Assembly (NCBI GenBank): GCA_963799845.1
Contig: CAWCYI010000006.1
Coordinates: 448,001-512,000 of the forward strand
Source of the DNA: an uncultured Nitrososphaerota archaeon
GTDB taxonomy: Archaea > Thermoproteota > Nitrososphaeria > Nitrososphaerales > CADDZS01
DNA: 64,000 nucleotides
Reading direction: 5' to 3'
The notes under the pieces were generated by a model, which had not been told where the DNA came from, did no database searches, and saw only the letters and a list, made by a program, of their open reading frames with translations. Made by a program: the position numbers and the translations under genes. The first letter of the stretch is position 1. Each line of letters opens with the position of its first letter. Positions 10,531 to 43,287 of this stretch are shown in pieces.

Positions 10531-10619
10531 ATTACCAACCCTCCACTAAATCCAAAACCTGTTGCCATTCCACCTTTCCGGCGATTAATATCGAATTTGT
10601 GCAAGACTCTCCAAACCTC

Positions 10620-11525: not shown

Positions 11526-11547
11526 TCTACCGATCCAAGAACAGCTG

Positions 11548-11592
11548 GTACTATATCACGTCGAATGTACGCTTATGTACAAATGTTTGTAC
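11548..11592 (-). promoter_or_regulatory. GTACA-repeat operator, copy 3, between divergent cupredoxin and RHH genes
   Basis: Reverse complement reads gtacaaacatttgtacataagcgtacattcgacgtgatatagtac. Confidence 0.7.
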
Positions 11593-11624
11593 AACTTCAA
11601 AAGGCAGCAGAGTGAATTTTTCGA

Positions 11625-12239: not shown

Positions 12240-12278
12240 TAAAATATGCCCTAACAAAAATACCATTGAAAGGTAGGA

Positions 12279-13127: not shown

Positions 13128-13134
13128 ATACATT

Positions 13135-13605: not shown

Positions 13606-13611
13606 CAGTCT

Positions 13612-14088
13612 CTAGCCTGACAATAGAGTAAGGAAGAGACCGAGGAAGATTCCATAGACTATGTGAGAAAGCAGGCTTACCAGCAAACCACGATTGGAAA
13701 TTCGGATTTGACCCAATGATTCAAAGGTCGTCTTGCCCATGACCGGAAACAGAACCCATAGTACGAAACTATAGACAGTCGTGTCGTAGAGTATCGAAAG
13801 CCTTGCGTCTGGAATAAACACGTAGAAAGTTGGGAGCAGAAGACGAAACGCGACGCTCGCGATGATTCCATTCAGTAAATGAGTTCCGACGGTTTTCCAC
13901 GGAAAACCGCTTTCCTCGATTAGATTCGTCCTGCGAAGAATGATTCTCGAATAAATCACGTTGTCCACCTGCCACTCGCCCACTCCTGACATTCCCCATT
14001 TTTTATAGAAGGGAAATTCCGATAGAGTCATGAAAACGGCGGCCGCTAGACCAGCTATTGACGCTTCGATTACATCTAACACTATCAA
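13612..14088 (-). CDS. 4-TM hypothetical membrane protein, tandem paralog B
   Basis: Paralog of 13135-13605; TM His motifs HLLNG and SHIVYG. Confidence 0.7.
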   Translation of the reverse strand: MIVLDVIEASIAGLAAAVFMTLSEFPFYKKWGMSGVGEWQVDNVIYSRIILRRTNLIEESGFPWKTVGTHLLNGIIASVAFRLLLPTFYVFIPDARLSILYDTTVYSFVLWVLFPVMGKTTFESLGQIRISNRGLLVSLLSHIVYGIFLGLFLTLLSG

Positions 14089-14157
14089 TGGGGTTTCTCA
14101 ACGACCAAGTTCAATGAGGGTTTTCTAGCAGTAAGATTCAAGATCTGAACATGATGT

Positions 14158-14964
14158 TCAAGAGCTTCTTACGATGACCGTCCCATTCATGTAGGGATGG
14201 ATTGCACAATGATAAGCGTATGTTCCAGCTGTTAAGAATGTGTAACTCCATTTGTCACCGAAGTTAAGCAATCCTGAATTGAAGAGGTTGGAATTGCTAG
14301 TTACAGTATGTATGGTGTAGTCCTGGTTCACCCATATGATTGTGTTGTTCACCCCGATTACCACGATGATAGAATCAGGGAGAAAGTGCCCGGCACTATT
14401 TGATGGATTGCTCGCTCCCGGGACAATTGAGACGGTGACTGCGTCGAACGTAGACACGCTTGGGGCGAAAAAAGCGCCATACGATACTCCGCCAACGACA
14501 AGTACCAACATTGCGACCGTCAGCACTCCACCGATAGACCTGGGACTGGTAAGAAATTTTTTCTGGTTAAGTCCCTTGTTTAGATTTACTAGACATAGAA
14601 TTGAGAATATCGCAACCAGCGCTAGAAGAGGAATACTGGACATCGCAATCGCGAATGTGGTAGAACCACTGGGTTTGGGATAGACTGCGAGGGACGGTAC
14701 AACGAACCCCAGACTGACCACGACTGACAAGACGAAACTCCACCTTCTTTGTGTTACAAAAGCACCGAACGCAGAGAAGAGGCAGAGTACAACGAAGCCG
14801 AGAACAAGGACAAGAAACGGATCAAAGAGAGAAGGTTTTTGCAAATCGGGAATTATGCCGTAAAGAAGATCCAATCCTGAAAAGATGAGTCCAGCGAATA
14901 TTACCCATACTGCGAAAGGATGCTTTCGAACCACGGACATAGTAAAACCATTTTGCACAAACAT
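14158..14964 (-). CDS. Multi-TM membrane protein fused to C-terminal cupredoxin, paralog 3
   Basis: PFAVWVI..GL.FS.LDLLYGI.PDL shared with 10620-11525; HTVTS...YHCAIHPYMNG. Confidence 0.85.
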   Translation of the reverse strand: MFVQNGFTMSVVRKHPFAVWVIFAGLIFSGLDLLYGIIPDLQKPSLFDPFLVLVLGFVVLCLFSAFGAFVTQRRWSFVLSVVVSLGFVVPSLAVYPKPSGSTTFAIAMSSIPLLALVAIFSILCLVNLNKGLNQKKFLTSPRSIGGVLTVAMLVLVVGGVSYGAFFAPSVSTFDAVTVSIVPGASNPSNSAGHFLPDSIIVVIGVNNTIIWVNQDYTIHTVTSNSNLFNSGLLNFGDKWSYTFLTAGTYAYHCAIHPYMNGTVIVRSS

Positions 14965-15183
14965 TCAGTGTCCATTTGTTAAGACTTTTCGACGCGACAA
15001 TCAAAACGTCGCCTTCCTTCGAGTGAGATACTAGGTAAGACGACTATTTGATGAAAGATGTACAACTATGTACTCGTCTACATCTGGCCTAATTAGCAGG
15101 CCTAAATTTGCAGAGTTTGTTCTGGTGAATGCTGGCATTGGACCCGATCTCAGGATAACTTTATGATTGCCTAACTTAGGGGT

Positions 15184-15870
15184 TTGATGCTCTCGGTGTT
15201 GGTTTCCTCCGGCCTTTCCTCATTAGATTCCGTACTAGGAGGGGAGGGATATCCGGAAAAATCAGCAGTTCTCGTTGTCGGACCTCCGGGCATCGGAAAG
15301 GAAGCATTAGGGTACTGGTTTACGCATTCGGGTCTGATCCAGAATGACTTTTGCCTCTACACTACAAGATTATCCGTCCGCGAAGTACTCCAAGATGTTA
15401 AGGCATTCAATGTTGACTTTTCCCAGAGGGTTCCGTTCTGGTTTGCGAGCGAAGGTGGACAGATTAAGTTCGACATCAACGACCTATCCAGCTTATCGTA
15501 CAACATCAAAGAAGTCCTGAAGAAAAATGCGGATCGCAGGATCAGGGTCGTAACCGATGTTATTTCTTCACTCCTGATGCTCAATCCTTCCGAGACCATT
15601 TACAAATTCCTTACTCAACTCTTTGCTGACGTAAAGCAGTATGACGCAGTGGTACTTGCGACGTTAGAAGAAGGGATGCACTCGCCCCAAGTTCTAGCTG
15701 CGATGCAGCAATTGTTTGACGGCGTCGTAGAGTTGAGACTGTACGAAGAGGGATTGAGAGTTCTACCTCTCTTACGAGTTAGAAAGATGCGAGGAGTACC
15801 ACCGCAGCCCGGTTACTACAATTTCTCATTCACGAAAACTGGAATGGAGATTAGCGCATATGGAAAGTAG
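15184..15870 (+). CDS. KaiC/RAD55-like P-loop protein, module copy 2
   Basis: GPPGIGKEALGYWF, RVVTD, RVRKMRG; very similar to 2643-3314. Confidence 0.88.
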   Translation: MMLSVLVSSGLSSLDSVLGGEGYPEKSAVLVVGPPGIGKEALGYWFTHSGLIQNDFCLYTTRLSVREVLQDVKAFNVDFSQRVPFWFASEGGQIKFDINDLSSLSYNIKEVLKKNADRRIRVVTDVISSLLMLNPSETIYKFLTQLFADVKQYDAVVLATLEEGMHSPQVLAAMQQLFDGVVELRLYEEGLRVLPLLRVRKMRGVPPQPGYYNFSFTKTGMEISAYGK

Positions 15871-16633
15871 TTCTGACGTCGAGAATATTATTCGAGTGGC
15901 ACTGCCTCTCGTACAGGCTGCGATGTTCGGATATGCGGCTTTTTGGGGGTTTAACATTAGGCATGCTCTGTATGTGAGACTGTATCGAAATCAGGCGCTT
16001 GGAATCGGGTTAATCGGATTAGCATTTGTATTTGTGACCATCGCGAACAACGTAATCGATTTCATTTATTCGAATAATAGTAACCTAGCCGGAAACCTTG
16101 TTGTTCCGGTTTATTATGTTGGATTTATCGTGATATTCTACTGGATAGACGCTTCGGTTCTCGCTGCGCGAAGATCCGACCCACTTCTGAGGGACACTTT
16201 TCATTGGACGCGGTTGCGAGTTCTACTTTGGTCAGTGATGATTATCCTAGTAGCCCTTGCTATGTCTGTCGACGCGTACTCATTATTGACTGGAAATCCC
16301 ATCCCTACAAATCTTCAGCCTCTCCCCGGAATCAATTTCCTTCTAATTCTTGCAACTGGCGCTGCCCTATTGCCCGTTTCTGCACGGAGGTCCAAAGACA
16401 TGTCTTTTCGAAAACATCTGGAGTGGTTTGGGATTTTCGCAGCCGTCTTCTTTGGTTTCATAGTCGAGACGATAGTGATAAACCTTCCAACTGTAACAAA
16501 TACGACTGTCATCTCGACGCTCGAAGCAGTTGTACCACTTACTATTGCTGCGTATTTTCTGTCAAGGAGTGCAAGATCACTTGTACCGTTGAACAGGCTT
16601 TTATTAGACGAACCTGACAGACCCAATGCCTAA
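15860..16633 (+). CDS. 7-TM membrane protein, module copy 2
   Basis: YAAFW..IRHAL..RLYRNQA, IDAS..AARRSDPLLR, ARRSKD..FRKHL.WFG, RSARSL.PLNR. Confidence 0.82.
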   Translation: MESSSDVENIIRVALPLVQAAMFGYAAFWGFNIRHALYVRLYRNQALGIGLIGLAFVFVTIANNVIDFIYSNNSNLAGNLVVPVYYVGFIVIFYWIDASVLAARRSDPLLRDTFHWTRLRVLLWSVMIILVALAMSVDAYSLLTGNPIPTNLQPLPGINFLLILATGAALLPVSARRSKDMSFRKHLEWFGIFAAVFFGFIVETIVINLPTVTNTTVISTLEAVVPLTIAAYFLSRSARSLVPLNRLLLDEPDRPNA

Positions 16634-16737
16634 TTCAGGACGAACGAGAAGCTAACACTGTTTGCGATATCTGTTGGTGCCTCTAAGCTTCTCAACTTCA
16701 AGCTAATCAACGGTGACACTGACTATGAGTTCGCGGT

Positions 16738-16827
16738 TCAAGCGTACTGCGTCTTGTTCTCCCTGCCGGCTTCAAGAGACAATTCGTCTGCTACACCATA
16801 ATCGACCGCAACATTTGTCCCACCCAA
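16738..16827 (-). pseudogene. Truncated duplicate of the RHH regulator N-terminus
   Basis: LGGTNVAVDYGVADELSLEAGRENKTQYA* is almost identical to the first 29 aa of 11625-12239. Confidence 0.8.
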
Positions 16828-16859
16828 TCCAAGTCCTCCCTTCGCAGGCATTTGGGGTC

Positions 16860-16904
16860 GTACAAACATTTGTACATAATCGTACATCCGATGTGATATA
16901 GTAC
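16860..16904 (+). promoter_or_regulatory. GTACA-repeat operator, copy 4
   Basis: gtacaaacatttgtacataatcgtacatccgatgtgatatagtac. Confidence 0.7.
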
Positions 16905-17040
16905 AACTACCCTCAGAACGCTCGAGTGGATTTGACTCCATTACAAGAGTTGAATGGATGCCTTTCTTGCGGCAAGAAAAGGAGACAAATAAAATATTCT
17001 CTAGATAAGAGCCCACAAACCATAGATCAACGGGAGGTAA

Positions 17041-17484
17041 ATGACCTCTGTAACAAACTGGTGGATCGAGGGAGGCCTTGAAGCCTTGCCAACCGTACCG
17101 CCTAAGCAAAAAATCGAAAGGGGTCCAAAGCAATCAATTCCTATCATTCTAGATCCAAATTTATTGCTTAGCAAACTACCTCTGAATTTTACGAAGACTA
17201 TGGTGAGCATCACAATAGGGTTGAGAGCGTTTACGGTCATTTCCACGTATCTAATGGTGGTACTTTATCGCGTTGCAATAGAGAATAACCCGATTCCCAA
17301 TAATCTAGGAATCGTCCCATACATGTTTTCATCAGCAACTATTGTTTGCCTTGCAATTTGGGTCTTGTATAGAAGAGCCCCAAGAGACGTTACCTTTCCG
17401 CTGCTATTTGGACTATTTCTAGTGACCGTGATGGACGCAGCAATGGATGCTACTACAGCTGTCAAAATAATTCTTTGGCAATGA
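17041..17484 (+). CDS. Hypothetical membrane protein
   Basis: 147-aa ORF with about 3 hydrophobic segments; GGAGGT upstream. Confidence 0.45.
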   Translation: MTSVTNWWIEGGLEALPTVPPKQKIERGPKQSIPIILDPNLLLSKLPLNFTKTMVSITIGLRAFTVISTYLMVVLYRVAIENNPIPNNLGIVPYMFSSATIVCLAIWVLYRRAPRDVTFPLLFGLFLVTVMDAAMDATTAVKIILWQ

Positions 17485-17787
17485 GATTAGGAAAATTCAA
17501 GGGATTCATTCGTACGAAGCATTTTCAAAGTGGCAGAGTCATCTCGAGTTGTCTTTTCAGAGCAACTCAGAGGAGAATCGACTTTTCTACAGCGTTGCTG
17601 AGCCGGGTTACCACGTGTAATTCTATATTCCACTATCAGCTGCTCCAAAATTCCCAGCAATCTGATTCAGCTGAATAGTAAATATACGACAGACGTTGTA
17701 TTCTATCAATAGCTGCTCTGCCGTCTTACGTTTAATTCAAACAATTGGAATCTGAAGAGTTGAACCTTGATCTACAAATTTGCTTTA

Positions 17788-18456
17788 TCAAACTAATTTT
17801 GAGTGCTTGAGATTTAGACGATAAACCTCAATCGGAATCTTAACATTCTTCAGCTTTTTCTTTCCAAGACTAGAAAACCGCATATTCAATTTGTTCCTTA
17901 CCTGAGAGTAAACCTGTTCAGTGACGCATACGGATCCCGGCACGCAGAGCGGCCCAATCCTGGACGCTACGTTAACGGCATCCCCCAACACATCATTGTT
18001 CCTGTGAATCACGTCTCCAAGGTGTACTCCAATTTTTAGAAGAAGCTTCTTTTCACTTGGGTGGTCCATGTTGAAATCGTTTACTGAACCTTGAATGTCG
18101 ATCGTACATTGCACTGCCTCAAGAGCACTCGCAAATTCAACGAGAAACGCATCACCCATCGTCTTTATTTCTCTTCCATTGTGCTTTCGAAAAATCGGTC
18201 GCAATAGCAATCTATGTTCTTCAAGAAGGTTTAGAGCAATGACTTCATTCTTCTGGGACAGAGCGGTATACCCGGTCATATCCGTGAACATGATTGCGGC
18301 CAGTCTTCTCTCATCGTCTTGGGTTGTTGCTGGCTCTACAAGCTTGTGCTGTTCAGTCCCGTTATTCTTAGAAGATTTCCATCTTTTGAGAAGAGTTTTC
18401 TCTTCGGCCGTAACTTTGTCTGCACTTACTGAACCATCTTTATCTGAGACACCCAT
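17788..18456 (-). CDS. Class III adenylate/guanylate cyclase (stand-alone catalytic domain)
   Basis: RRLAAIMFTDMTGYT, KTMGDAF, IGVHLGDV, DVLGDAVNVASRI, LKNV. Confidence 0.88.
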   Translation of the reverse strand: MGVSDKDGSVSADKVTAEEKTLLKRWKSSKNNGTEQHKLVEPATTQDDERRLAAIMFTDMTGYTALSQKNEVIALNLLEEHRLLLRPIFRKHNGREIKTMGDAFLVEFASALEAVQCTIDIQGSVNDFNMDHPSEKKLLLKIGVHLGDVIHRNNDVLGDAVNVASRIGPLCVPGSVCVTEQVYSQVRNKLNMRFSSLGKKKLKNVKIPIEVYRLNLKHSKLV

Positions 18457-18670
18457 CTTTGAGAAGGCCCACTTTCGATTTTCTTGAGTTTGCCCATCCT
18501 AATATCTTTCATACTTATTCGCTGATTCGAGAAGCTCATTCCAGTTTCGAAATTTCCTATCCCGAGAAATCACCAAGTTAGCCCGAGGCTGTCTCACAAG
18601 TCAGAGAATTCTTAGGCCAATCCCAAGATAGATTTATCTCAATCCTAAACTCAGAGCGGGGCAATAGCCT

Positions 18671-19342
18671 TTGGCTTCGACGGGTATATCATCGCTCAAC
18701 AGTCTACTCGGGAGTGATGGTTATCCAGACAGGTCAACAATTCTCATTGTTGGCCCTCCTGGAATCGGGAAGGAAGCTCTCGGCTACTGGTTCACTTACA
18801 CCGGCTTAGTCCAGAACGATTTCTGTTTATACAATACTAGATTATCTTCAAAGGAAGTTCTCCAGGATGTTAAGGCATTCAACGTAGATTTCTCTCAAAG
18901 AGTTCCGTTCTGGTTTTCGAGCGCTGGTGGTCAGGTTAAGTTTGATGTTAACGATCTTGCAGGACTATCATACAATATCAAAGACATTCTGAAGAAAAAC
19001 TCTGACAGAAGAATCAGGATAGTAACTGATGTACTCTCGTCTCTATTGATGTTAAACCAACCCGATACAATCTACAAATTCCTAACGCAACTATTTGCCG
19101 ACACAAAGCAATACGATTCAGTAGTACTCACGACTCTCGAAGAAGGAATGCATCCTCCAAACGTTCTAGCCGCAATGCAGCAGCTGTTCGATGGAGTAAT
19201 AGAACTCAGACTCTACGAGGAGGGGTTGCGAGTGCTTCCCCTCTTGAGAATAAGGAAGATGAGAGGAGTTCCCCCTCAACCCGGTTACTACAACTTTGCT
19301 TTCTCGAAAACTGGAATGGAGGTAAGTGCATTTGTCAGATAG
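18671..19342 (+). CDS. KaiC/RAD55-like P-loop protein, module copy 3
   Basis: GPPGIGKE, RIVTD, RIRKMRG; near-identical to copy 1. Confidence 0.88.
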   Translation: MASTGISSLNSLLGSDGYPDRSTILIVGPPGIGKEALGYWFTYTGLVQNDFCLYNTRLSSKEVLQDVKAFNVDFSQRVPFWFSSAGGQVKFDVNDLAGLSYNIKDILKKNSDRRIRIVTDVLSSLLMLNQPDTIYKFLTQLFADTKQYDSVVLTTLEEGMHPPNVLAAMQQLFDGVIELRLYEEGLRVLPLLRIRKMRGVPPQPGYYNFAFSKTGMEVSAFVR

Positions 19343-20102
19343 TTTGGGATTCGCACTGGCATTAATCATCGCCGAGATCGTGCCCGCTGCAATCGCACTT
19401 TATGCGGCGTACTGGGCGTTTGCAATCAGGCGAGCGCTCGCCGGCCGAATCTATCGCAACCACGCTTTTTGGCTGGGCGTTGTGTGCATCCTATACGCGG
19501 CGGCGGAATTTGTTACTTATAGCAACAATGCTATCGTCCAAGATGCTCTCGGTATCTTTTATTTGATTTTGAATCCGGTTATATTCGCGTTTATCGATTC
19601 CACGGTGCGCGTTGCCCGACGATCGGACCCGCTCCTCCGCACTGTGCTCCGCTGGGAGAAGCTTCGCATAGTGCTCTGGATTGATGAGATCGCCCTCGCA
19701 ATCTTATTGGCTTCTATGTTTGACCCTTCAATCATTGCGAGTATCAATCCAGCTGTGGGAGGCCTTCTGTTCATTATCTTGATATCAATCCCATACATCG
19801 GGGGAACGCCCGCCTTGCTTATTGGAGCCAGAAGGTCCAGGGACCCTGTGCTTCGAAGAAGTCTGAAGTGGCTGGGTGTGTTCTTTCTATTCTTTCTCGG
19901 ATATTTGTTGGAGTTCGGCATAATCCAACTTATCATCCCTGGTATCAGCCAATTTGAACTGTATTATTCGTACACTGCCATTCCCGGTGGGATCATCGGA
20001 ATCTTGGGAGCATACGCTATCTACAAGAGCGCCCGGTCTCTCGCGCCAATAAATCGCATGTCATTAGAAGTTGAGCCCAAAGTGGAACCTCCCCGGGCCT
20101 AA
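19332..20102 (+). CDS. 7-TM membrane protein, module copy 3
   Basis: Seven hydrophobic segments; TTG start at 19332 by analogy with copy 1 (MSDSLGFALA). Confidence 0.85.
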   Translation: MSDSLGFALALIIAEIVPAAIALYAAYWAFAIRRALAGRIYRNHAFWLGVVCILYAAAEFVTYSNNAIVQDALGIFYLILNPVIFAFIDSTVRVARRSDPLLRTVLRWEKLRIVLWIDEIALAILLASMFDPSIIASINPAVGGLLFIILISIPYIGGTPALLIGARRSRDPVLRRSLKWLGVFFLFFLGYLLEFGIIQLIIPGISQFELYYSYTAIPGGIIGILGAYAIYKSARSLAPINRMSLEVEPKVEPPRA

Positions 20103-20186
20103 TTCGATCCCTCCACTGTACAGCTAGGGGATATTAATTTAGGTCAGCGAGCAGTTGGCTTCCACATAATATAAGTTGGTGAGCTT

Positions 20187-20856
20187 CTGGCTTCCACTGG
20201 AGTTCCATCACTTGACGCTTTACTTGGTAGCGATGGCTACCCTGACAGATCAGCTATTCTCGTAGTCGGAGCTCCTGGAATTGGAAAGGAGGCATTAGGT
20301 TACTGGTTTGTTCGCTCTGGTTTGATTCAGGGAGATTATTGTCTCTATGCCACTCACTGCCCTGTCTCCGATGTCCTGCGAGATATGAAAGGAGTTGGAA
20401 TAAGTACAGAACGTGTTCCCGAATGGATCGCAGAGCTCTGGTTCACCTTTAAAGTTAGACCTCAGAGACGCAACCTCAATTTCGTTCGACATCAAGGAAG
20501 CAGTACACCGAAATAAGAATAGGCGGGTCAGAGTCGCGACAGATGTCCTGTCTCCACTCCTGGTACTGAATCCCCTCGAATCGATGTACAATTACTGGTC
20601 TCAGCTTCTCTCTGATATAAAGCAGCAAGATGCTGTCATCTTTGCGCTCGCAGAGGATGGTATGAATCCTCCAAACGTCCTAACCACAATGGAACAGATA
20701 TTCGACGGAGTAATCGAAATGAGGCTCTATGAAGAAGGTCTTTCCATTACGCCGCTCTTCCGCGTGAAGAAGATGCTTGGTCTTCCACCGCTTCACGGTT
20801 ACTTCAGGTTCTCAGTTTCGAGTACGGGAATGGAGGTTGTTCCATATACCCATTGA
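20187..20856 (+). CDS. KaiC/RAD55-like P-loop protein, module copy 4 (CTG start, frameshift near 20433)
   Basis: (L)ASTGVPSLDALLGSDGYPDRSAILVVGAPGIGKE in the frame of ORF 20322, continuing in ORF 20413. Confidence 0.75.
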
Positions 20857-21551
20857 TATCAGCTCCATTATCGACGTGTTACTCTTCATAGAGAGGATCA
20901 TCACCGCAGGAATATTCCTCCTAAGTACTGTACAGAGCCCTAAAAATTGGAAAAGCGCTCGTGAGTTCCGTCTATCGTAATCGGGCGTACTGGTTGGCGG
21001 CCCTTACGGTCACCCTCATCATCGGTGGTTTGAATGCTTACGTGACTTATCCCAATACGCCGCTTGGCTGGTTTCTGAGTCGCAATAACTACAACTTCCC
21101 ATTTCTTGTTGGACTGACTCTCGTTTTCGCCTTCTTGGACAGCGTGATCCTCGTTGCGATGGAGATGGATTTCTTTCACAGGGACACCCTGCGCTGGAGG
21201 CAGCTTCGAGCGCCCGCATACGCGGTTTTCCTTGTAGCCATTTTCATTCTATCAATACCGAATTCGCTACTGTTTAATGTCTTATCCACAGTCCTTCCGG
21301 TAATCTCCGCGGGATATGCCATTGCCGTCCTCATAGTTGCCTCGCGAAGAACCCCGGACATGACGCTGAGAAGACACACAAGGTTACTCGGATACGCATT
21401 CATTGTCTACATAGTATCTGTTCTCGTGTTCTCGATCCCGATCTGGGGTAATCTTATCTCGGATCTTTTCGTCATAATCTCCGCCTATCTGATTTATCTG
21501 GCGACCATGTCGCTATCGCCGATGAGCCGGATCGAGAAGACGATTGCCTAA
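20846..21551 (+). CDS. 7-TM membrane protein, module copy 4 (ATA at start position, frameshift near 20930)
   Basis: IPIDISSIIDVLLFIERIITAGIFLLST joins YRALKIGKALVSSVYRNRAYW; RDTLRW, SRRTPD..LRRH, SLSPMSR. Confidence 0.7.
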
Positions 21552-35948: not shown

Positions 35949-36767
35949 TCAAGTTGACCCCGAGTCCTCTTCCTGTTCGATCATTTCCCTACCAGGCGAT
36001 ACGCGACTGAGGGGAGCAAGTGACCTGGCGTTTCGGTAGAGACAATACGTTGCGACAACGATCAATATTTGGAAGACATTGTAGCCAATGGCATAGATTC
36101 CTTTGTAGGCAAGAAAGTAGAGGAATCCGCTTGGAAATGCTCCGCCCGACGAGCCTTGGATCACTAACGAAATCGCTATAATCGCGGCCAGAACGAACAA
36201 GACGAAAAGACCGAACCATTTTAGATTCGTCCTTCGCGCGTCGCTCCTCGTTCTCCTTGCCGTGAGCAGGAGTGCGGGAGCTCCTGCAAGAAAAGTCGGT
36301 AAGTACACCGCTATGATCAAGACTGTCGCTACCGTTGCAACGGGAACCCCGGTGGCTGTTTCTAAGACGAGCAACCCAAAATAGAATGCAATCATCGCAA
36401 GGGTCATGCCCCAAACGCCGAACCGAAGTTTGCTCCATTTGAGAGTGTCCCTGAAGAGCGGATCAGATCGGCGGGCGGTGCGGACGGTACCGTCTATCCA
36501 GGCAAGCAGTACTATCGGCAGAGCTCCGACGTAGAAAACACTGATCACAAGCTGGGTGAGCGGGTCTGTGCTCATCGGTGTCGGGAGTACGGGTATCAAA
36601 AAGATGCAGACAACGCCAAGCCAAAGAGCTTGGCTCCGCGAAAATCGATTCCTGAGCACTCGTCTCAATACGAACGCCCAGTAAGCGGCATAAGCCAGGA
36701 TTGCACCTGCGACGATATCCTCCGCAAAGACCGCACCTATCATCATCAATATAATGTCACTTGGCAT
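35949..36767 (-). CDS. 7-TM membrane protein, module copy 5
   Basis: MPSDII..., YAAYWAF.LRR.L, WIDGTV.TARRSDPL.R.TLKW.KLR, ARR.R....R.NLKWFG, YRNARSLAPL.R. Confidence 0.83.
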   Translation of the reverse strand: MPSDIILMMIGAVFAEDIVAGAILAYAAYWAFVLRRVLRNRFSRSQALWLGVVCIFLIPVLPTPMSTDPLTQLVISVFYVGALPIVLLAWIDGTVRTARRSDPLFRDTLKWSKLRFGVWGMTLAMIAFYFGLLVLETATGVPVATVATVLIIAVYLPTFLAGAPALLLTARRTRSDARRTNLKWFGLFVLFVLAAIIAISLVIQGSSGGAFPSGFLYFLAYKGIYAIGYNVFQILIVVATYCLYRNARSLAPLSRVSPGREMIEQEEDSGST

Positions 36768-37434
36768 ATGCACTAACCTCCATCCCCTTAGAAGTAAAAG
36801 ATACATCATAGTATCCAGGGTGAGGGGGAACTCCCCTCATCTTCCTGATCCTCAACAACGGGAGGACTTTGAATCCTTCCTCGTAGAGTTTGAATTCGAT
36901 TACGCCGTCGAAGAGTTGTCGCATCGAGCTCAGCGTCTTCGTATCGTGCATCCCTTCATCCATCGTCGCAAGCAACACAATGTCGTACTGTTTGAGATCC
37001 GACAATAGTTGAGAGAGGAAGCTGTACATCATCTCCGGGGGATTCAGGACAAGGAGCGGAGAAAGAACGTCGGTAACAATCCTTATCCTTCGTTTACTGT
37101 TGCTCCTTGCGAGCTCCTTGAGCTTCACCGATATGGCAGTCAAGTCATTTATGTCAAATTTGATCTGCCCACCTTCACTTGCAAACCACACCGGACTCGC
37201 TTGACTCAAGTCGATTTTGTATCCCCTGACGTCCTCGAGAACATCATGGACGGGCAGCCTCGTCATGTAGACGCAAAAATCTCCGAGGTCGAGGCCCGAC
37301 TTCGTGAAGAAGTAGCCCAGTACTTCCTTTCCGGCGTCAGGACTCCCAAAGACTAGCACTGCGGACTTACTTGGATAGCCATCTCCACCTAAAATCGCGT
37401 CAAGGGATCCAAAGCCGGTGGAAACCAAAGTCAA
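36757..37434 (-). CDS. KaiC/RAD55-like P-loop protein, module copy 5
   Basis: STG..SLD.ILGGDGYP, Walker A GSPDAGKE, RIVTD, RIRKMRG. Confidence 0.87.
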   Translation of the reverse strand: MTLVSTGFGSLDAILGGDGYPSKSAVLVFGSPDAGKEVLGYFFTKSGLDLGDFCVYMTRLPVHDVLEDVRGYKIDLSQASPVWFASEGGQIKFDINDLTAISVKLKELARSNSKRRIRIVTDVLSPLLVLNPPEMMYSFLSQLLSDLKQYDIVLLATMDEGMHDTKTLSSMRQLFDGVIEFKLYEEGFKVLPLLRIRKMRGVPPHPGYYDVSFTSKGMEVSAYAK

Positions 37435-37561
37435 CAGCGACCGAAGAAGACTTTCAAGATAAACGTTTGCTCACAGCCCGGGACGATTAAGAAAACCTGT
37501 TTCCGCGGCAGGCCAATTTCGGAAAAGTATTTATCGAGTTAGGAAAGCTCCAGCGCACTCA

Positions 37562-37858
37562 ATGCCAGATGAAAATAACGGAAAGGGTACGCTGAAAGAA
37601 TTTGTTGACAGACTAAACAACGATCCGGCGACTCGTACGCAATTTCTCTCCAATCCCGTAGAAATCCTTCGAGGCTACGGGATAACGCTGTCGAAGTCAG
37701 CAGAAGAAGGACTGATGCAAATCATAGAAGAGTATCGCGAAAAGATCGCGTCGATTAGAGAATTACAAGGTAAGACAATAACAACAACTACAACAACAAC
37801 GACGACAGAAAGGAATGACTCCATAGAACCAGTTGGAGGTACGATGGACTTCATCTGA
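37562..37858 (+). CDS. Putative RiPP precursor with NHLP-clan-like leader, Thr run and GG-TMDFI terminus
   Basis: LKEFVDRLNNDPATRTQFLSNPVEILRGYGITLS resembles NHLP/nitrile-hydratase-like leaders (DPxFRxxxxxNPxxxLxxxGxxL). Confidence 0.6.
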   Translation: MPDENNGKGTLKEFVDRLNNDPATRTQFLSNPVEILRGYGITLSKSAEEGLMQIIEEYREKIASIRELQGKTITTTTTTTTTERNDSIEPVGGTMDFI

Positions 37859-37909
37859 GCGAGAATTGACCGAAAGCCCAATCTACTCAGAATTCGGTTC
37901 GGAGATAGG

Positions 37910-38845
37910 GTGGATAAGGAGGACCGTCAGCGAGCACGCCCTAATGCTGCCTTCGGTTTTCAAGCATTCCTTCATTATTATCTCAATGATAGACTAAAGA
38001 TCCTTACGAATGCGGTTCCAAAGGAAGCGAAGCTTGGCAGAGTATTTCCCTACTCGATCTTCTGGTTAGCCAATGCCCTTCCCAAATCAGAGCTTGCGAA
38101 TGTTCGCAAGCTCGCTCTTTCGGGAGTTTACGATTGCCTGAGTGTTACGATTGCAGATGACTTGCTGGATCGCCAAATCGAAGCGGATCGCGCAATACTA
38201 GTCGCGCTCGCCGGCGAGTATGCCAACATGCGCGCCAAACTACAAAGAGAACTTTTCGTTCCCAAATCAAGATTTTGGGATATCGTTTCATATTGCAGAG
38301 CCGACGCGGCCAAATACAACAGATGGAATTCGATCTGTACCGCATGGTCGGAGCCTTTGTCGGATAAATTCCTTCGGGATTCCTCGCGGTATGTTGTCTC
38401 TGTATTGCTGCCAGGTCTTGCTGGCGTCGCTATACTAGCTAGAAGTGAAAACAGGATAGAGGAGATCTCACGCTTCCTGAGGACTTTCTCCATGGCTTGG
38501 CGCATAGTTGACGATATCTGGGACTGGGAGGAAGACCTCCACGTGCGAAACTTGAACAATTCAACAATCCTCCATCTGATAAGGGCAAAGTCCGGAGCCG
38601 ATAAAATGTCAAACGAGATTGTCCTAGCCAAGTTCCTCGATGATAATTTTGTACGAGAAATTTACCAAAGGGCGTTAGAGCTCTTGAAAAGAGCTAAGAA
38701 AAGCTCGCACCAATTGAATTGCCCATATTTAGAGGAGTTCATGGAGAGCCAGATTGATTACCACGCCAGTCAGCGCGACTCGCTGCTGGGCTCCAACAAG
38801 TCTTTCCGGAGAGAGCTGACGAGTTTGCTCCCTGCAATCTCATAG
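37910..38845 (+). CDS. Class I isoprenoid synthase-fold enzyme (ComQ-like prenyltransferase/terpene synthase candidate)
   Basis: Asp-rich motifs ADDLLD and WRIVDDIWDWEED; predicted all-helical. Confidence 0.7.
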   Translation: MDKEDRQRARPNAAFGFQAFLHYYLNDRLKILTNAVPKEAKLGRVFPYSIFWLANALPKSELANVRKLALSGVYDCLSVTIADDLLDRQIEADRAILVALAGEYANMRAKLQRELFVPKSRFWDIVSYCRADAAKYNRWNSICTAWSEPLSDKFLRDSSRYVVSVLLPGLAGVAILARSENRIEEISRFLRTFSMAWRIVDDIWDWEEDLHVRNLNNSTILHLIRAKSGADKMSNEIVLAKFLDDNFVREIYQRALELLKRAKKSSHQLNCPYLEEFMESQIDYHASQRDSLLGSNKSFRRELTSLLPAIS

Positions 38846-38970
38846 GACAGCTAGGATTCGGAGTATTCGCCACAACCAGCGCTAAGAACTTCGCTGTTAC
38901 CGATCGCGATCAACTCCGTGATCCAGTTGACAAGTGAACAGCTGGAGACTTCTCTACAAAATTTAGAACG

Positions 38971-39655
38971 TTGAACGATGCGTGGAATGTGATTTTGCTT
39001 TCCAGTTTTTGGAGGACAGAAGGGAAATCCGTGCTTGAGAACCAGCGGTTAAGCGAAGTAACCGCGAACGAGAAGAAATTTCTCAAGAAGTGGAAGCGTT
39101 CGAAAAAGTCTGAAGATGAATCCAGACAAAAGGAGGATCGAAAATTCGAAGATGGGAGACGGCTTTGCGCCATTATGATCACTGACATTGTTGGTTACAG
39201 TGCCCTATCTCAAGAAAATGAGACGCATTCTCTTGAAGTTCTACAGAAGCACAATAGTTTGCTACGCGAGTTCTTCCGGAAGTACGGTGGTGTCGAGGTG
39301 AAGACAATGGGCGATTCTTGGTGGACGTACGGTTGGCTGGCCGGACTGGTTTGGGCATACGCTAGATCGGGCAAAGAAGGAAGAAGCCAAGAAAATTCAA
39401 GAGCAAGTCCAAGAATTTTCAAAGACACATTATGTAAGGTCGGATTGGCTGATTGTTATTCATCAGAGATTGGGCGAGAACGACGAGGCCATCCGGCTCC
39501 TAGAAAAAGCCTACGATATGCGGGAATACGATTCGTTGACCGGCATAAACGTTGAACCAATGTATGACGTCATACGTTCTGACCCGCGGTTCGTAGCGCT
39601 ATTGAAGAAAATAGGACTGGACGAATACGGCAATCTCGCGATTCCTTCTGGGTAA
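38971..39655 (+). pseudogene. Internally deleted cyclase-TPR gene remnant
   Basis: RRLCAIMITDIVGYS...KTMGDS joined directly to terminal TPR sequence (AYARSGK..., EAIRLLEKAY...DPRFVALLKKIGL). Confidence 0.75.
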
Positions 39656-41184: not shown

Positions 41185-41484
41185 TTATGCCAGCGGCGCG
41201 ATCAATTGAAGGGATCCAACTTGTCCTAATACATTTGCATAAGTTTCTACAACTCGAGCACCTTTCTCAGTGAGCACGTAATTTTTTCTGCCCCGTACAT
41301 CGCTCGGGCTCACCAACCCCAATTCTTCGAGACTCCTAATGAAATTCCTGCAGACAGCCCATGAAAGCTTTGTTCGGTACATGATGTGAGTCGGCCTACC
41401 AGCTCCATCAAAAATAGCTTGGAGAATATCAATTTTCACTTCCATGTTGGATCTTCTTGGACGTGATGTTATCATTGTTGGCAA
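41185..41484 (-). CDS. Small winged-helix transcription regulator (archaeal RRS...I..IL...T.IMY..NLS type), paralog 1
   Basis: RRSNMEVKIDILQAI....PTHIMYRTKLSW...LEELGLV....Y.LTEKG. Confidence 0.8.
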   Translation of the reverse strand: MPTMITSRPRRSNMEVKIDILQAIFDGAGRPTHIMYRTKLSWAVCRNFIRSLEELGLVSPSDVRGRKNYVLTEKGARVVETYANVLGQVGSLQLIAPLA

Positions 41485-42443: not shown

Positions 42444-43287
42444 GGGTTTTGACCAACAATTGATTTCGTCTGCCCTAACATGAGGAAATGTTTTGGAGGG
42501 GCCCAGGTTTTGGGTAAATATAATATCGGTGCCAGGCATAAACTCTGGATCTAAATTTCCCTCCAAAGAGGAAAGTTAAAGAAATTTGAGTTCAAGGTAG
42601 TTTGAAGTTCGTTATACTTGAGGAAAGGTAATTCGCAGCCGATTTGACCAGTTCAGAAAGCACTTGATGACTCCAAAGGCTTACTCAGTTATCATTTTTA
42701 GCATGTCGGATCCAACCTCAAGAAGGCTTGACAATAGCGTAAGGCCGTTTATGCTATTCCATTCCTGTTTTTCTCTGATTTAATGTGATTTTTTGCGTTG
42801 CAGGGAACATGACTTTCTACACGAATGATCGGTTGAACAAATCATTCGATTTTGACCAACATTGCGAATTGGGTGCCCTAATTTGATTAAAAAACCACTT
42901 TGGGGATTACGTGTTTGGGAGAATTCATGCTTTAGCCCAAACCCCTCATTCATCAAATTAGGCGGTTTCCCCAAAGATTACGATTTATGCCAACGGTGCG
43001 ATCAATTGAGGAGATTCTAGTTGCCTTCTAACATTTGCATAGGTATCTAGAACTCGGGCACCTTTCTGGGTGAGTGTGTAGTTCTTTCTGCCCTCCGCAT
43101 CGCTCGAGCTGACCAGTCCCTGCTCTTCGAGAGCCTTTACGAAATTCCGCATAGGTGCCCATGAAAGGTTTGATTGGTACATGATGTGTGTTGGCCTGCT
43201 AGCTCCTTCCGAAATCGCCTGGAGGATATCGATCTTGACATCTAGCTTGGATCTTCTTGGACCCGCTGTTGTTATTGATGTAGTCAT
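42416..43287. repeat. Duplicated unit (non-coding blocks plus wHTH gene), copy 2
   Basis: Homologous to 40686-41484. Confidence 0.8.
42985..43287 (-). CDS. Small winged-helix transcription regulator, paralog 2
   Basis: RRSKLDVKIDILQAI....PTHIMYQSNLSW...QLIAPLA. Confidence 0.8.
   Translation of the reverse strand: MTTSITTAGPRRSKLDVKIDILQAISEGASRPTHIMYQSNLSWAPMRNFVKALEEQGLVSSSDAEGRKNYTLTQKGARVLDTYANVRRQLESPQLIAPLA

What the first reader, a model, noticed from the sequence alone, without database searches (positions are those of the whole stretch)
35949..39655. Peptide precursor + ComQ-like enzyme divergent from a 7-TM/KaiC pair: possible prenylated-pheromone signalling locus
Seen: 7-TM <- KaiC-like <- (127 bp) -> 98-aa peptide -> isoprenoid-synthase-fold enzyme -> cyclase-TPR remnant. 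The peptide has an NHLP-like leader (DPATRTQFLSNPVEILRGYGITL), a Thr run, and ends VGG-TMDFI. The enzyme has DDLLD and DDIWDWEED but lacks the RRG that follows the first Asp-rich motif in chain-elongating trans-isoprenyl diphosphate synthases. Established: Bacillus ComQ is an isoprenyl-synthase homolog that prenylates the short ComX pheromone, and NHLP-type leaders are often cleaved at Gly-Gly. Inference: a lipidated short peptide (e.g. TMDFI) is the ligand for the adjacent 7-TM receptor, i.e. an archaeal quorum-sensing-like circuit. Caveats: the core has no Trp, and no peptidase or exporter is seen in the window.
Basis: partly seen in the sequence, partly recalled or inferred. Interest (0 to 1): 0.88.

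Follow-up and report, generated by a model that had tools for sequence, protein, structure and literature searches.

The report
Archaeal PalQ-like peptide-lipidation cassette, decaying
A small leader-bearing peptide gene and a prenyl-synthase-fold enzyme gene form a conserved pair related to a known bacterial peptide-prenylation system, but this archaeal copy is damaged and its proposed tie to the neighbouring membrane receptor is weak.

Summary
The gene order is as described. The 98-aa ORF and the enzyme ORF form a conserved two-gene cassette. Nine other loci (Nitrososphaerales, Bathyarchaeota, Acidobacteriota) carry the enzyme with a small same-strand ORF directly upstream.

The enzyme has a trans-isoprenyl-diphosphate-synthase fold (Z 21) and keeps both Asp-rich motifs. 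It lacks the IPP 'RRG' loop. It is homologous (hhalign 98.9%) to the enzyme of a Paenibacillus cluster built like the published PalP/PalX/PalQ system: histidine kinase, NHLP precursor, Trp prenyltransferase.

What is new is that the window's clade has Arg/Lys where characterised enzymes have the Trp-recognising Gln. Its precursors end in Trp-less hydrophobic tails.

The 7-TM/KaiC receptor link is not supported:
- The module is multicopy, with five pairs in this window.
- It occurs in 28 of 401 genomes, against 3 of 401 for the enzyme.
- It was not found in 4 of 6 cassette-bearing genomes.

The cyclase-TPR gene is a stump. This copy is probably decaying.

The parts
37562..37858 (+). Precursor-like peptide gene (98 aa). 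It has an NHLP-clan-like helical leader, a Thr9 linker and a short hydrophobic C-terminal tail, TMDFI.
   Evidence: ORF. Sub-threshold NHLP-clan hits. Profile-profile match to bona fide Paenibacillus NHLP precursors: prob 89%, E 2.4e-6. The 84%-identical homologue P0006 keeps TMDFI while the residues before it vary.
37866..37961 (+). 5' part of the enzyme gene, in a different frame from the rest. It starts at TTG, 7 nt after the peptide's stop, and encodes the conserved N-terminal 32 residues.
   Evidence: BLASTP to the N-termini of P0003 and P0004: E 4e-10 and 9e-12. DNA.
37957..37964 (+). Frame break at a T4 run. One base is missing relative to the homologues' reading.
   Evidence: Homology passes from one frame to the other here. 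A contig built from a short-read run covers 37918-38900 with 0 other letters and 0 gaps.
37910..38845 (+). Main ORF of the trans-IDS-like enzyme (311 aa from an internal GTG). FARM is DDLLD and the SARM-like motif is DDIWDWEED, with Arg in place of the usual Gln upstream of it.
   Evidence: AF2 pLDDT 91.1. VIA Z 21.2 to heptaprenyl-PP synthase 5h9d_B. Family invariants. Profile hit to 4lob at E 3.2e-7. R/K counts.
38971..39555 (+). Fragment of a class III nucleotide cyclase gene. Only the first third of the domain remains.
   Evidence: Pfam Guanylate_cyc E 8.2e-6, profile positions 9-63 of 183. Frames.
39470..39655 (+). Last piece of a TPR sensor gene (TPR end-of-group domain), in another frame than the cyclase fragment.
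   Evidence: NF047558 E 5.3e-7, 29.5 bits against a cut-off of 32. 43% identical over 49 residues to the C-terminus of the acidobacterial kinase-TPR next to a homologous cassette.
37435..37561 (.). 127-bp divergent spacer. A TTTAT(C) box lies about 25-30 nt upstream of each start codon.
   Evidence: Read directly from the sequence. Calling these archaeal TATA-like boxes is inference, not a test.
36757..37434 (-). Single-domain KaiC-like ATPase gene. It is one of six such loci in the genome, and its Walker A reads GSPDAGKE.
   Evidence: Pfam KaiC 67.9 bits. Paralogues.
35949..36809 (-). 7-TM membrane protein gene, overlapping the end of the KaiC-like gene. It is one of five such loci, all inside this window.
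   Evidence: No Pfam or NCBIfam family. Seven hydrophobic segments. 7-helix model with best VIA Z 14.7 to GPCR-like folds. Paralogues.

Best explanation
The peptide gene and the enzyme gene are a two-gene cassette for a ribosomally made, enzyme-modified peptide. It is of the same kind as PalX/PalQ of Paenibacillus and ComX/ComQ of Bacillus.

Proposed mechanism:
- The helical NHLP-like leader docks on the C-terminal helices of a trans-isoprenyl-diphosphate-synthase-fold enzyme.
- The enzyme holds a prenyl diphosphate on its Asp-rich motifs. It has no IPP-elongation loop.
- It alkylates the short hydrophobic C-terminal tail of the peptide.
- An unidentified protease then frees a small lipopeptide.

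Shown here: the conserved pairing, the fold, the motifs, and homology to the enzyme of a Pal-like cluster. Also obtained: a predicted leader-enzyme interface. Inferred: the prenyl transfer itself, the acceptor residue, cleavage, export and any signalling role.

The window's clade differs from all characterised members. Arg/Lys replaces the Gln that recognises tryptophan, and the precursors have no conserved Trp. The acceptor is therefore probably a different residue.

In this genome the system looks defunct or failing. The enzyme gene has a 1-nt frame break after codon 32, and the adjacent cyclase-TPR sensor gene is reduced to two fragments.
For: 1. Pairing.
- Besides the window, 9 loci hold a strong enzyme homologue (E 1e-98 or lower). 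Two came from genome scans. Seven more distinct ones came from the 73 pattern matches, where an eighth strong match, L020, is the same contig as G625. All were scored.
- All 9 have a small same-strand ORF directly upstream.
- An HMM was seeded with 4 peptides. Of the 7 non-seed ORFs, 4 score E 3e-6 to 3e-11, one scores 0.0045, and two (0.12, 5.9) are not significant.

2. Fold.
- AF2 pLDDT is 91.1.
- VIA Z is 21.2, rmsd 3.0 over 265 residues, to 5h9d_B. The next rows are GGPP and other polyprenyl-PP synthases at Z 19-21. Terpene cyclases score about 12.

3. Motifs.
- D83, D202, D209 and W52 are invariant. D84, D87, D201, D205 and W206 are at least 90% conserved in 34 sequences.
- FARM and SARM align with those of solved synthases, and the 'RRG' loop is missing.

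4. Kinship with a Pal-like system.
- Paenibacillus cellulosilyticus encodes an enzyme hit by the family model at E 8.2e-22; hhalign gives prob 98.9, E 3.7e-17 over 241 columns.
- It is followed by five tandem precursors ending KYTWV, KFVWI, KYNWL, KYVWF and PFIWT, and by a histidine kinase.
- One of those precursors passes TIGR03793 (67.7 bits against 50.9).
- The published PalPXQ cluster has this make-up, and PalQ prenylates the C-terminal Trp of PalX (PMC10853753: passages and section 2.1 read).

5. Leader. The family's peptide profile matches the Paenibacillus NHLP profile at prob 89, E 2.4e-6.

6. Complex.
- The intact G625 pair scored 0.64 against a best control of 0.00. That mark was reached by 58 of 80 solved complexes and 2 of 110 mismatched pairs.
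- The runs agree in at least 58% of contacts, and partner pLDDT is at least 65. My own alignments were used, so these counts hold only roughly.
- Leader residues 3-57 lie on enzyme residues 244-265 and 310-330.

7. RiPP company elsewhere.
- G389 has a TIGR03975 RiPP radical-SAM C-methyltransferase (619.5 bits) just upstream of the peptide.
- Distant family members are fused to SPASM peptide maturases. In two such loci a Cys-rich repeat peptide lies upstream.

8. Decay.
- Frame break: and contig support.
- The 99%-identical P0001 starts in the same shifted frame and is also cut short at its C-terminus.
- The cyclase-TPR gene is in fragments.
Against: - No chemistry was or could be tested.
- The window's peptide has no Trp. 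According to the 2026 review, all characterised trans-IDS-like peptide prenyltransferases target Trp (PMC13290415, section 2.4).
- The Gln that recognises Trp is Arg here, so the enzyme may do something other than peptide prenylation.
- The Gln-Trp rule is not strict in my own data. Gln-type enzymes in L016 and L029 sit beside NHLP-like peptides without Trp.
- NHLP-clan hits of the window's peptide are all below threshold. Two of the upstream ORFs (L074, L071) are not significantly similar to the others.
- No protease or exporter lies in the window. An S8 subtilase is adjacent in only 1 of the 9 other loci, L044.
- I could not compare against the real PalQ sequence. Calling the Paenibacillus cellulosilyticus cluster a Pal cluster rests on its architecture and on the paper's statement that the cluster is conserved in Paenibacillus. 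The paper's supplementary Figure S3 could not be seen.
Confidence: 0.68

Rival explanations
1. One reading: the lipidated C-terminal peptide is the ligand of the adjacent 7-TM protein, which signals through the KaiC-like ATPase. This would be a quorum-sensing-like loop specific to these four genes.
For: - In both genomes that have the cassette and the 7-TM family (G000, G625), a KaiC-like/7-TM pair is the immediate neighbour of the cassette. The orientations differ: divergent in the window, convergent with a 35-nt overlap in G625.
- Under uniform random placement this would be rare. My rough inference is about 1% per genome.
- A 68%-identical 7-TM homologue (P0094) and the 61%-identical enzyme homologue (P0003) both come from a JGI contig of 8548 bp. 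It is probably the same contig.
- The 7-TM model resembles GPCR-like bundles. The best match is Z 14.7, rmsd 4.3 over 214 residues.
- The Pal-like cluster's kinase has a weak 7TMR-DISM_7TM hit, 21.1 bits against a cut-off of 29. ComP and PalP are membrane kinases.
Against: - The module is multicopy. There are 6 KaiC-like and 5 7-TM loci in G000, and all five pairs lie within window 2.6-36.8 kb. G625 has 6 copies of each. Adjacency may simply reflect a variable island.
- In one sample of 401 genomes of the order, 28 have the 7-TM family and 3 have the enzyme. So 26 of the 28 lack the enzyme.
- The 7-TM family was not found in 4 of 6 cassette-bearing genomes: G389 (99% complete), G744, G745 and G746.
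- The G625 copy next to the cassette is the least similar of its six to the window's KaiC-like protein: 49% against 53-55%.
- None of the other 8 loci shows the pair within the DNA held. Several of those loci are short.
- The Walker A reads GKE rather than GK[ST].
- Z values near 13-14 are common for helical bundles, according to the tool's own note.
Confidence: 0.12
2. The product is sensed or regulated by TPR-containing sensor proteins (cyclase-TPR in archaea, Ser/Thr kinase-TPR in Acidobacteriota), not by the 7-TM protein. The window keeps only the stump of that partner.
For: - All 3 acidobacterial loci have a large TPR protein directly beside the cassette. The arrangements are three different ones. 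A Pkinase domain is seen in 2 of them (L065, L033); in L031 the protein's start lies off the locus, and only TPR families are seen in the part held.
- Two of them match TIGR04510 'putative peptide modification system cyclase' over its TPR part. E values are 3.4e-60 and 6.6e-64, at 204-217 bits, below the cut-off of 400.
- The window's stump has the same TPR end domain, 43% identical over 49 residues.
- The window's peptide weakly hits TIGR04509 'NHLP-related RiPP peptide' at E 0.0036.
- Haft et al. 2010 note a large Ser/Thr kinase beside NHLP-Burk precursors (PMC2887384, passages read).
Against: - Kinase-TPR genes are very common in Acidobacteriota, and I made no background count.
- No TPR sensor was seen at the other archaeal loci.
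- The window's stump did not hit TIGR04510.
- That TIGR04509 and TIGR04510 belong to one system is my reading of their names, not something I tested.
Confidence: 0.2
3. The enzyme makes a free isoprenoid, acting as an odd prenyl-diphosphate synthase or terpene synthase. The small protein would then be a non-substrate partner, such as a small subunit or regulator.
For: - The best structural and sequence matches are true chain-length synthases. They include heterodimeric hexaprenyl- and heptaprenyl-PP synthases, which work with a small subunit.
- Both Asp-rich motifs are intact, unlike ComQ, which lacks the second (PMC10853753 introduction).
- There is no Trp acceptor in the peptide.
Against: - The IPP-binding 'RRG' loop and the FQ motif of elongating synthases are absent.
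- Pfam polyprenyl_synt scores only 11.6 bits against a cut-off of 27.
- The small ORF has a conserved leader and a hypervariable remainder with a short conserved tail. That is the pattern of a precursor, not a subunit.
- Relatives are fused to, or sit next to, peptide maturases.
- The nearest system with a matching described make-up modifies its peptide.
Confidence: 0.1

Closest known systems
PalP / PalX / PalQ of Paenibacillus alvei (Miyata, Ito, Fujinami 2023, PMC10853753)
   Same: - An NHLP-type precursor lies next to a prenyltransferase of the isoprene-synthase superfamily, with a sensor protein beside them.
- The target is the extreme C-terminus of the precursor.
- The family here is homologous to the enzyme of a Pal-like Paenibacillus cellulosilyticus cluster.
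- It shares the DDxxDWxxD signature with that enzyme.
   Different: - The window's clade is separate. It forms a group of 41 rows with SH-aLRT 100 in a quick tree, while Paenibacillus falls in the Gln-type group.
- It has Arg/Lys instead of the Trp-recognising Gln.
- Its precursors lack a conserved Trp.
- Its hosts are archaea and Acidobacteriota.
- There is no histidine kinase.
- I could not compare with PalQ itself.
ComQ / ComX / ComP / ComA of Bacillus subtilis
   Same: A trans-IDS-fold enzyme lipidates a short ribosomal peptide near its C-terminus, and a multi-pass membrane sensor is encoded alongside.
   Different: - ComQ has FARM but lacks SARM (PMC10853753 introduction). Here both are intact.
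- ComX has no NHLP leader. That point is recalled, not tested.
- The acceptor in ComX is Trp.
- The window's enzyme does not reach the Pfam polyprenyl_synt threshold.
ChrPC-type prenyltransferase-cyclase fusions (known to me only from the review PMC13290415, section 2.4)
   Same: Distant members of the family found here are fused to squalene-cyclase-like domains (P0057, P0069), which resembles a P-domain plus C-domain enzyme.
   Different: The window's enzyme stands alone and belongs to the Arg/Lys clade. I did not compare with a ChrPC sequence.
Chain-elongating trans-isoprenyl diphosphate synthases (GGPP, hexaprenyl-, heptaprenyl- and octaprenyl-PP synthases)
   Same: Same fold (Z 19-21), and FARM and SARM align.
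   Different: There is no RRG loop after FARM, W-[RK] stands in place of F-Q before SARM, and an extra conserved W-x-x-D follows SARM.
NHLP/Nif11 precursor systems with kinase or cyclase partners (Haft et al. 2010, PMC2887384; NCBIfam TIGR04509, TIGR04510, TIGR03903)
   Same: An NHLP-clan leader, a hypervariable C-terminal part, and a large kinase or cyclase-TPR protein nearby.
   Different: - All hits of the window's genes to these models are below threshold.
- The Gly-Gly motif is not conserved here.
- Those systems use other maturases.

Membership tests
trans-IDS-like peptide prenyltransferases (ComQ, PalQ, ChrPC P domain) | trans-isoprenyl diphosphate synthase alpha-fold | tested here: met
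   AF2 pLDDT 91.1. VIA Z 21.2, rmsd 3.0, 265 residues aligned to 5h9d_B. The prenyltransferases MoeN5 (Z 18.2) and Ord1 (Z 18.0) are also listed.
trans-IDS-like peptide prenyltransferases (ComQ, PalQ, ChrPC P domain) | First Asp-rich motif (FARM) that holds the prenyl donor | tested here: met
   DDLLD. D83 is invariant and D84 and D87 are at least 90% conserved in 34 sequences. It aligns with the FARM of solved synthases.
trans-IDS-like peptide prenyltransferases (ComQ, PalQ, ChrPC P domain) | Conserved Gln just upstream of SARM that recognises the indole of Trp (review PMC13290415, section 2.4) | tested here: not met
   The window has Arg (WRIVDD). In the close set P0001-52, 34 are R, 12 are K and none is Q, out of 50. 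Two rows scored 'T' are a regex slip onto FARM and are really R. In the distant set, 29 of 39 are Q.
trans-IDS-like peptide prenyltransferases (ComQ, PalQ, ChrPC P domain) | Adjacent precursor peptide with a Trp acceptor near the C-terminus | tested here: not met
   A precursor-like ORF is adjacent in all 9 other loci, but the window's peptide has no Trp. Only 1 of the 10 distinct precursors seen beside a strong enzyme homologue (G389...AAFWPI) has Trp in its tail; the orphan homologue P0006 has none either.
trans-IDS-like peptide prenyltransferases (ComQ, PalQ, ChrPC P domain) | Sequence homology to a characterised member | tested here: inconclusive
   Homology to the enzyme of a Pal-like Paenibacillus cellulosilyticus cluster is clear (hhalign prob 98.9, E 3.7e-17).
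trans-IDS-like peptide prenyltransferases (ComQ, PalQ, ChrPC P domain) | Transfer of a prenyl group to the peptide | not testable with these tools
   This needs expression and mass spectrometry.
Pfam PF00348 polyprenyl_synt (includes elongating synthases; that ComQ belongs to it is recalled) | Score above the gathering threshold | tested here: not met
   11.6 bits against 27, E 0.16.
Chain-elongating trans-IDS | IPP-binding basic loop (RRG) after FARM and the F-Q-x-x-DDxxD SARM context | tested here: not met
   In the alignments to 4lob, 4jxy, 5h9d and 9kp1, the 'rrg' loop is an insertion relative to the family, and W-R aligns with F-Q.
NHLP leader peptide family (TIGR03793) | Score above the curated cut-off | tested here: not met
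   14.3 bits against 50.9. The clan-level relation is supported by hhalign prob 89, E 2.4e-6 to true NHLP precursors.
NHLP leader peptide family (TIGR03793) | Gly-Gly cleavage motif at the end of the conserved leader (Haft et al. 2010) | tested here: not met
   GG is present in the window (VGGTMDFI), but the 84%-identical P0006 has GY. There is no conserved GG column in the 11-sequence alignment.
KaiC / RecA-superfamily ATPase (PF06745) | Pfam score above threshold; canonical Walker A GxxxxGK[ST] | tested here: inconclusive
   The Pfam threshold is met (67.9 bits against 26.6). Walker A reads GSPDAGKE, and GPPGIGKE in the paralogues, with Glu in place of Ser/Thr. The protein has a single domain of 225 aa, not the double-domain KaiC.
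7-TM receptors (GPCR-like, rhodopsin-like, 7TMR-DISM) | Seven-helix bundle with likeness to a known receptor family | tested here: inconclusive
   Seven hydrophobic segments. Foldseek's best E is 0.015. VIA's best Z is 14.7, with all 50 rows being 7-TM or GPCR-like proteins, but such Z values are common for helical bundles. No Pfam family.
TIGR04510 putative peptide modification system cyclase | Cyclase plus TPR protein scoring above the cut-off | tested here: not met
   The window's fragments do not hit it. The acidobacterial neighbours hit its TPR part at 204-217 bits against a cut-off of 400.

The most novel reading that the evidence does not exclude
The Arg/Lys clade of trans-IDS-like enzymes lipidates a non-tryptophan acceptor at the extreme C-terminus of NHLP-like precursors. 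The acceptor could be the terminal carboxylate, a nearby Asp/Glu, or a Cys. This clade is found in Nitrososphaerales, Bathyarchaeota and Acidobacteriota.

It would be the first such chemistry for this enzyme class and the first prenylated ribosomal peptide of archaea. The product would serve as a secreted signal read by whichever sensor is encoded next to it: 7-TM/KaiC-like in some Nitrososphaerales, kinase- or cyclase-TPR elsewhere.
Probability: 0.22. Interest if true: 0.85.

Novelty: new variant of a known kind. Interest (0 to 1): 0.55.

Why it matters
According to the 2026 review, every characterised peptide prenyltransferase with the prenyl-synthase fold acts on tryptophan, through a conserved Gln. 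Here there is a well-separated clade that has swapped that Gln for Arg/Lys. It is paired with precursors that have no conserved Trp, and it occurs in archaea and Acidobacteriota.

- If active, intact members (not the damaged copy in this window) would extend enzymatic peptide lipidation to a new acceptor.
- They would also give a handle on peptide signalling or peptide natural products in ammonia-oxidiser relatives, where very little is known.
- For this window alone the result is sobering: the locus is a decaying copy, and the attractive receptor story is weakly founded.

Tried and rejected
- Gly-Gly cleavage giving TMDFI as the ligand: rejected as a family feature, because P0006 has G-Y and there is no conserved GG column.
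- Frame break as a long-read homopolymer error: set aside. A contig built from a short-read run (X1, possibly the source sample, so not independent of the sample) covers 37918-38900 without gaps. P0001 starts in the same shifted frame.
- Programmed -1 slip on GUU-UUC: it would give exactly the homologues' spacing, but I have no evidence for it and treat it as unlikely.
- RNA evidence: no RNA holder was listed, so nothing can be said about expression.
- X2 and X3 cover only parts of the stretch, and neither covers the frame break.
- Other cassette copies in the genome: none. The two further hits of the peptide model are nitrile-hydratase-alpha-like genes.
- ESM Atlas for the 7-TM protein: best score 0.87, no named family, nothing usable.
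- Foldseek for the 7-TM model: no match at E 0.001 or better.
- PADLOC and PHROGS libraries were not searched.
- L008/L009, the only metagenome hits (28% identity, high-GC bacterium): I read the ORFs of L008 only, saw nothing interpretable, and did not pursue either locus.
- Literature searches:
  - 'PalQ', 'ChrPC' and TIGR accession numbers (0 papers).
  - NHLP + polyprenyl + RiPP + archaea.
  - Nitrososphaera + RiPP + precursor peptide + quorum sensing.
  - None showed a paper on archaeal or Arg/Lys-type members. This covers only the held library.
- Supplementary files of PMC10853753 (Figures S2, S3, S5, S6) could not be seen. They may bear on motif conservation and on which Paenibacillus species carry the cluster.
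- The tree is the quick search, not the finished careful one. P0001 was left out as a near-duplicate, and sequences with a matched domain under 220 residues were dropped.

Full report
**What is there.** The window is G000:C6:448001-512000 of a 4.6-Mb archaeal assembly in 9 contigs (86.7% complete). It belongs to an order whose other members include many genomes of about 1.5 Mb. Related loci are titled Nitrososphaerales.

  - a 286-aa membrane protein, 35949-36809(-);
  - a 225-aa KaiC-like ATPase, 36757-37434(-);
  - a 127-bp spacer;
  - a 98-aa ORF, 37562-37858(+);
  - a 311-aa ORF, 37910-38845(+);
  - two fragments, 38971-39555 and 39470-39655.
- Pfam confirms KaiC (67.9 bits) and a partial nucleotide cyclase domain covering profile positions 9-63 of 183.
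- NCBIfam gives a TPR end-of-group domain for the last fragment (E 5.3e-7). For the peptide it gives only sub-threshold NHLP-clan hits.
- The two sensor fragments lie in different frames, with most of the gene gone.

Homologues of the enzyme begin with a conserved stretch, M-x-x-x-I-Y-x-x-F-...-W-I-R-...-L-P-x-x-F.

- In the window this stretch is encoded from TTG 37866, 7 nt after the peptide's stop codon, in a different frame from the 311-aa ORF. BLASTP gives E 4e-10 to P0003 and 9e-12 to P0004.
- The two frames meet at the T-run 37957-37960. One extra T would restore the exact spacing of the homologues.
- A contig built from a short-read run covers 37918-38900 with no gap and no other letter. 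That run may be the sample of origin. The break is therefore not an artefact of this assembly.
- P0001, a 99%-identical protein from a 17-kb contig, starts in the same shifted frame and is also cut short at its C-terminus.
- Together with the stump of the cyclase-TPR gene, this suggests the locus is decaying in this lineage.

**The enzyme.**
- The family is rare. It gave 4 hits in the 5.8-billion-protein index. In the exhaustive representative library it gave 87 hits at E 0.001 or better, of which 46 were at 1e-10 or better.
- With a 34-sequence alignment, AlphaFold2 gives pLDDT 91.1.
- The model matches trans-isoprenyl diphosphate synthases at Z 19-21. The best is 5h9d_B, at Z 21.2 with rmsd 3.0 over 265 residues. 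It matches class I terpene cyclases at only about Z 12. Foldseek agrees, with TM 0.6-0.67.
- A profile of the family finds solved synthases by sequence (4lob, E 3.2e-7). Both Asp-rich motifs align. The synthases' basic 'RRG' loop after the first motif falls in an insertion relative to this family.
- Pfam polyprenyl_synt is not reached (11.6 bits against 27).
- The whole family shares a signature, DDxxDWxxD.

**The pair is conserved.**
- Scans of 401 genomes of the phylum and 401 of the order found strong enzyme homologues only in G389 and G625. None of 6 congeners had one.
- A pattern scan of one genome per species gave 73 stretches. Eight hold a strong homologue: two Bathyarchaeota, a Nitrosocosmicus, an unclassified archaeon, three Acidobacteriota, and the G625 contig again. 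Nine hold weaker ones.
- That makes 9 distinct loci besides the window. In all of them a small ORF lies directly upstream on the same strand.
- An HMM was seeded with four of these peptides. It scores four of the seven non-seed ORFs at E 3e-6 to 3e-11, one at 0.0045, and two (L074, L071) not significantly.
- The alignment shows a conserved helical leader (F..VN.D...R..FL.DP...L...GI.L) followed by a variable stretch.
- The tails are short and mostly hydrophobic, often preceded by acidic residues:
  - TMDFI, ADEMLIV, AAFWPI, EDDPMMF;
  - DDEKILII, CKERIVVI, CKEGILII;
  - DDSFVC, EVPPPG, SFFPFG.
- The 84%-identical P0006 keeps TMDFI while the residues before it differ, including G-Y in place of G-G.

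**Link to a known system.** The literature search led to PalQ (PMC10853753; passages and section 2.1 read).

- In Paenibacillus alvei, a histidine kinase PalP, an NHLP-type precursor PalX and an isoprene-synthase-superfamily enzyme PalQ form a cluster. PalQ prenylates the C-terminal Trp of PalX.
- One of my pattern hits lay in a Paenibacillus cellulosilyticus genome. Searching that genome with the family model gave a hit elsewhere at E 8.2e-22.
- That locus encodes the enzyme, five tandem precursors ending KYTWV, KFVWI, KYNWL, KYVWF and PFIWT, and a histidine kinase.
- One precursor passes the NHLP model (67.7 bits against 50.9).
- hhalign of the family against this enzyme gives prob 98.9, E 3.7e-17 over 241 columns.
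- The peptide profiles match at prob 89, E 2.4e-6.
- I could not obtain PalQ's own sequence. Calling this a Pal-like cluster therefore rests on its architecture.

**Other RiPP company.**
- G389 has a RiPP radical-SAM C-methyltransferase (TIGR03975, 619.5 bits) just upstream of its peptide.
- Distant family members are fused to SPASM peptide maturases or to squalene-cyclase-like domains.
- Two such fusions have a Cys-rich repeat peptide upstream.
- One archaeal locus has an S8 subtilase next door.

**Complex prediction.** I used the intact G625 pair rather than the window's broken one.
- The score was 0.64 (runs 0.62, 0.65, 0.64) against a best control of 0.00. That mark was reached by 58 of 80 solved complexes and 2 of 110 mismatched pairs.
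- The runs agree in at least 58% of contacts, and partner pLDDT is at least 65. My own alignments were used, so these counts hold only roughly.
- Leader residues 3-57 lie on enzyme helices 244-265 and 310-330. Only residue 85 of the 87-residue peptide touches the enzyme with low expected error, near residue 60.
- This supports leader docking. It does not show where the tail goes.

**What is different.** The 2026 review (PMC13290415, section 2.4 read) makes two statements. All characterised trans-IDS-like peptide prenyltransferases target Trp. A Gln just upstream of the second Asp-rich motif, together with its first Asp, recognises the indole.

- In the close set (P0001-52) that position is R in 34 and K in 12 of 50, and never Q. 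Two rows labelled 'T' are a regex slip and are really R.
- In the distant set, 29 of 39 are Q.
- In a quick IQ-TREE the window lies in a group of 41 rows (SH-aLRT 100), all of them R/K. The Paenibacillus enzyme and the fusions lie among the Gln-type rows.
- The window's clade has thus lost the Trp-recognition residue, and its precursors lack a conserved Trp.
- The correlation is not clean. Two Gln-type acidobacterial enzymes (L016, L029) sit beside NHLP-like peptides without Trp.

**The 7-TM/KaiC pair.**
- The module is multicopy. G000 has six KaiC-like and five 7-TM loci, and all five pairs lie in window 2.6-36.8 kb. Some are split by frame breaks or stops. G625 has six of each.
- In G625 one pair abuts the cassette, but convergently. 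It is the least similar of the six to the window's KaiC-like protein, at 49% against 53-55%.
- In one sample of 401 genomes of the order, 28 have the 7-TM family and 3 have the enzyme.
- Of six cassette-bearing genomes, the 7-TM family was found in two, G000 and G625. It was not found in G389, G744, G745 or G746.
- P0094 (a 7-TM protein, 68% identical) and P0003 (an enzyme, 61% identical) both come from a JGI contig of 8548 bp. This hints at the same neighbourhood in a relative. I could not verify it.
- The 7-TM model (pLDDT 85.6) looks like a GPCR-type bundle, with best Z 14.7. That level is common for helical bundles.
- Adjacency in both genomes that have both elements is more than uniform chance would give. 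It is also what a shared variable island would give.

**Other sensors.**
- All three acidobacterial loci have a large TPR protein directly beside the cassette, in three different arrangements. Two carry a Ser/Thr kinase domain; the third's start lies off the locus, so only its TPR part is seen.
- Two of these match the TPR part of TIGR04510, 'putative peptide modification system cyclase', below its cut-off.
- The window's stump shares their C-terminal TPR end domain.
- Haft et al. 2010 already noted a large Ser/Thr kinase beside one NHLP precursor group (PMC2887384, passages read).
- A sensor next to the cassette is thus a recurring theme, but the kind of sensor varies.

**Verdict.**
- The peptide-plus-enzyme reading is well supported, and its kind has been known since 2023.
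- The Arg/Lys clade with Trp-less precursors in archaea and Acidobacteriota is an uncharacterised variant worth testing in intact members.
- The 7-TM receptor circuit is weakly supported.
- The copy in this window is probably on its way out.

Noticed in passing
window 2643-20856 and 35949-37434: This is an island of five KaiC-like/7-TM gene pairs: 2643-3837, 15184-16633, 18671-20102, about 20187-21551, and 35949-37434. Several are damaged, with a KaiC-like gene split at 20187-20856 and 7-TM genes split or carrying an in-frame stop. A sixth KaiC-like gene without a 7-TM partner lies at G000:C6:969482-970297.
   Followed up: partly
L085 (G742:C5:139000-150000), 5280-9703: Paenibacillus cellulosilyticus has a Pal-like cluster with five tandem NHLP precursors whose Trp is penultimate (KYTWV, KFVWI, KYNWL, KYVWF, PFIWT), not C-terminal as reported for PalX. 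Its histidine kinase has a weak 7TMR-DISM_7TM hit.
   Followed up: partly
L053 3111-5678 and L014 2092-4542: These are acidobacterial fusions of the prenyl-synthase-like domain (Gln type) with a radical-SAM/SPASM maturase. Each is preceded by a roughly 110-aa peptide with CxxNC-type Cys-rich repeats.
   Followed up: no
L007 (G389:C47) 7819-11135: In G389 a B12-binding RiPP radical-SAM C-methyltransferase (TIGR03975, 619.5 bits) lies directly upstream of the precursor (...GGAAFWPI) and the enzyme. This suggests a doubly modified peptide in that archaeon.
   Followed up: partly
L044 2193-3650: An S8 subtilase gene lies divergent from the precursor-enzyme pair of an uncultured archaeon. It is a candidate leader protease, and the only one seen in the 9 loci.
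   Followed up: no
window 41185-41484 and 42985-43287: Two paralogous winged-helix (HTH_45) genes of about 100 aa lie in a low-GC stretch downstream of the locus, among short unassigned ORFs.
   Followed up: no
G000:C4:248367-249290 and C6:833101-833908: These are nitrile-hydratase-alpha-like genes. One has the CTLCSC metal site; the other looks split. They account for the only other hits of the NHLP-like peptide model in this genome.
   Followed up: partly
window 37435-37561: Both divergent genes have a TTTAT(C) box about 25-30 nt upstream of their start codons. That would fit back-to-back archaeal promoters giving nearly leaderless transcripts. This was read from the sequence only.
   Followed up: no
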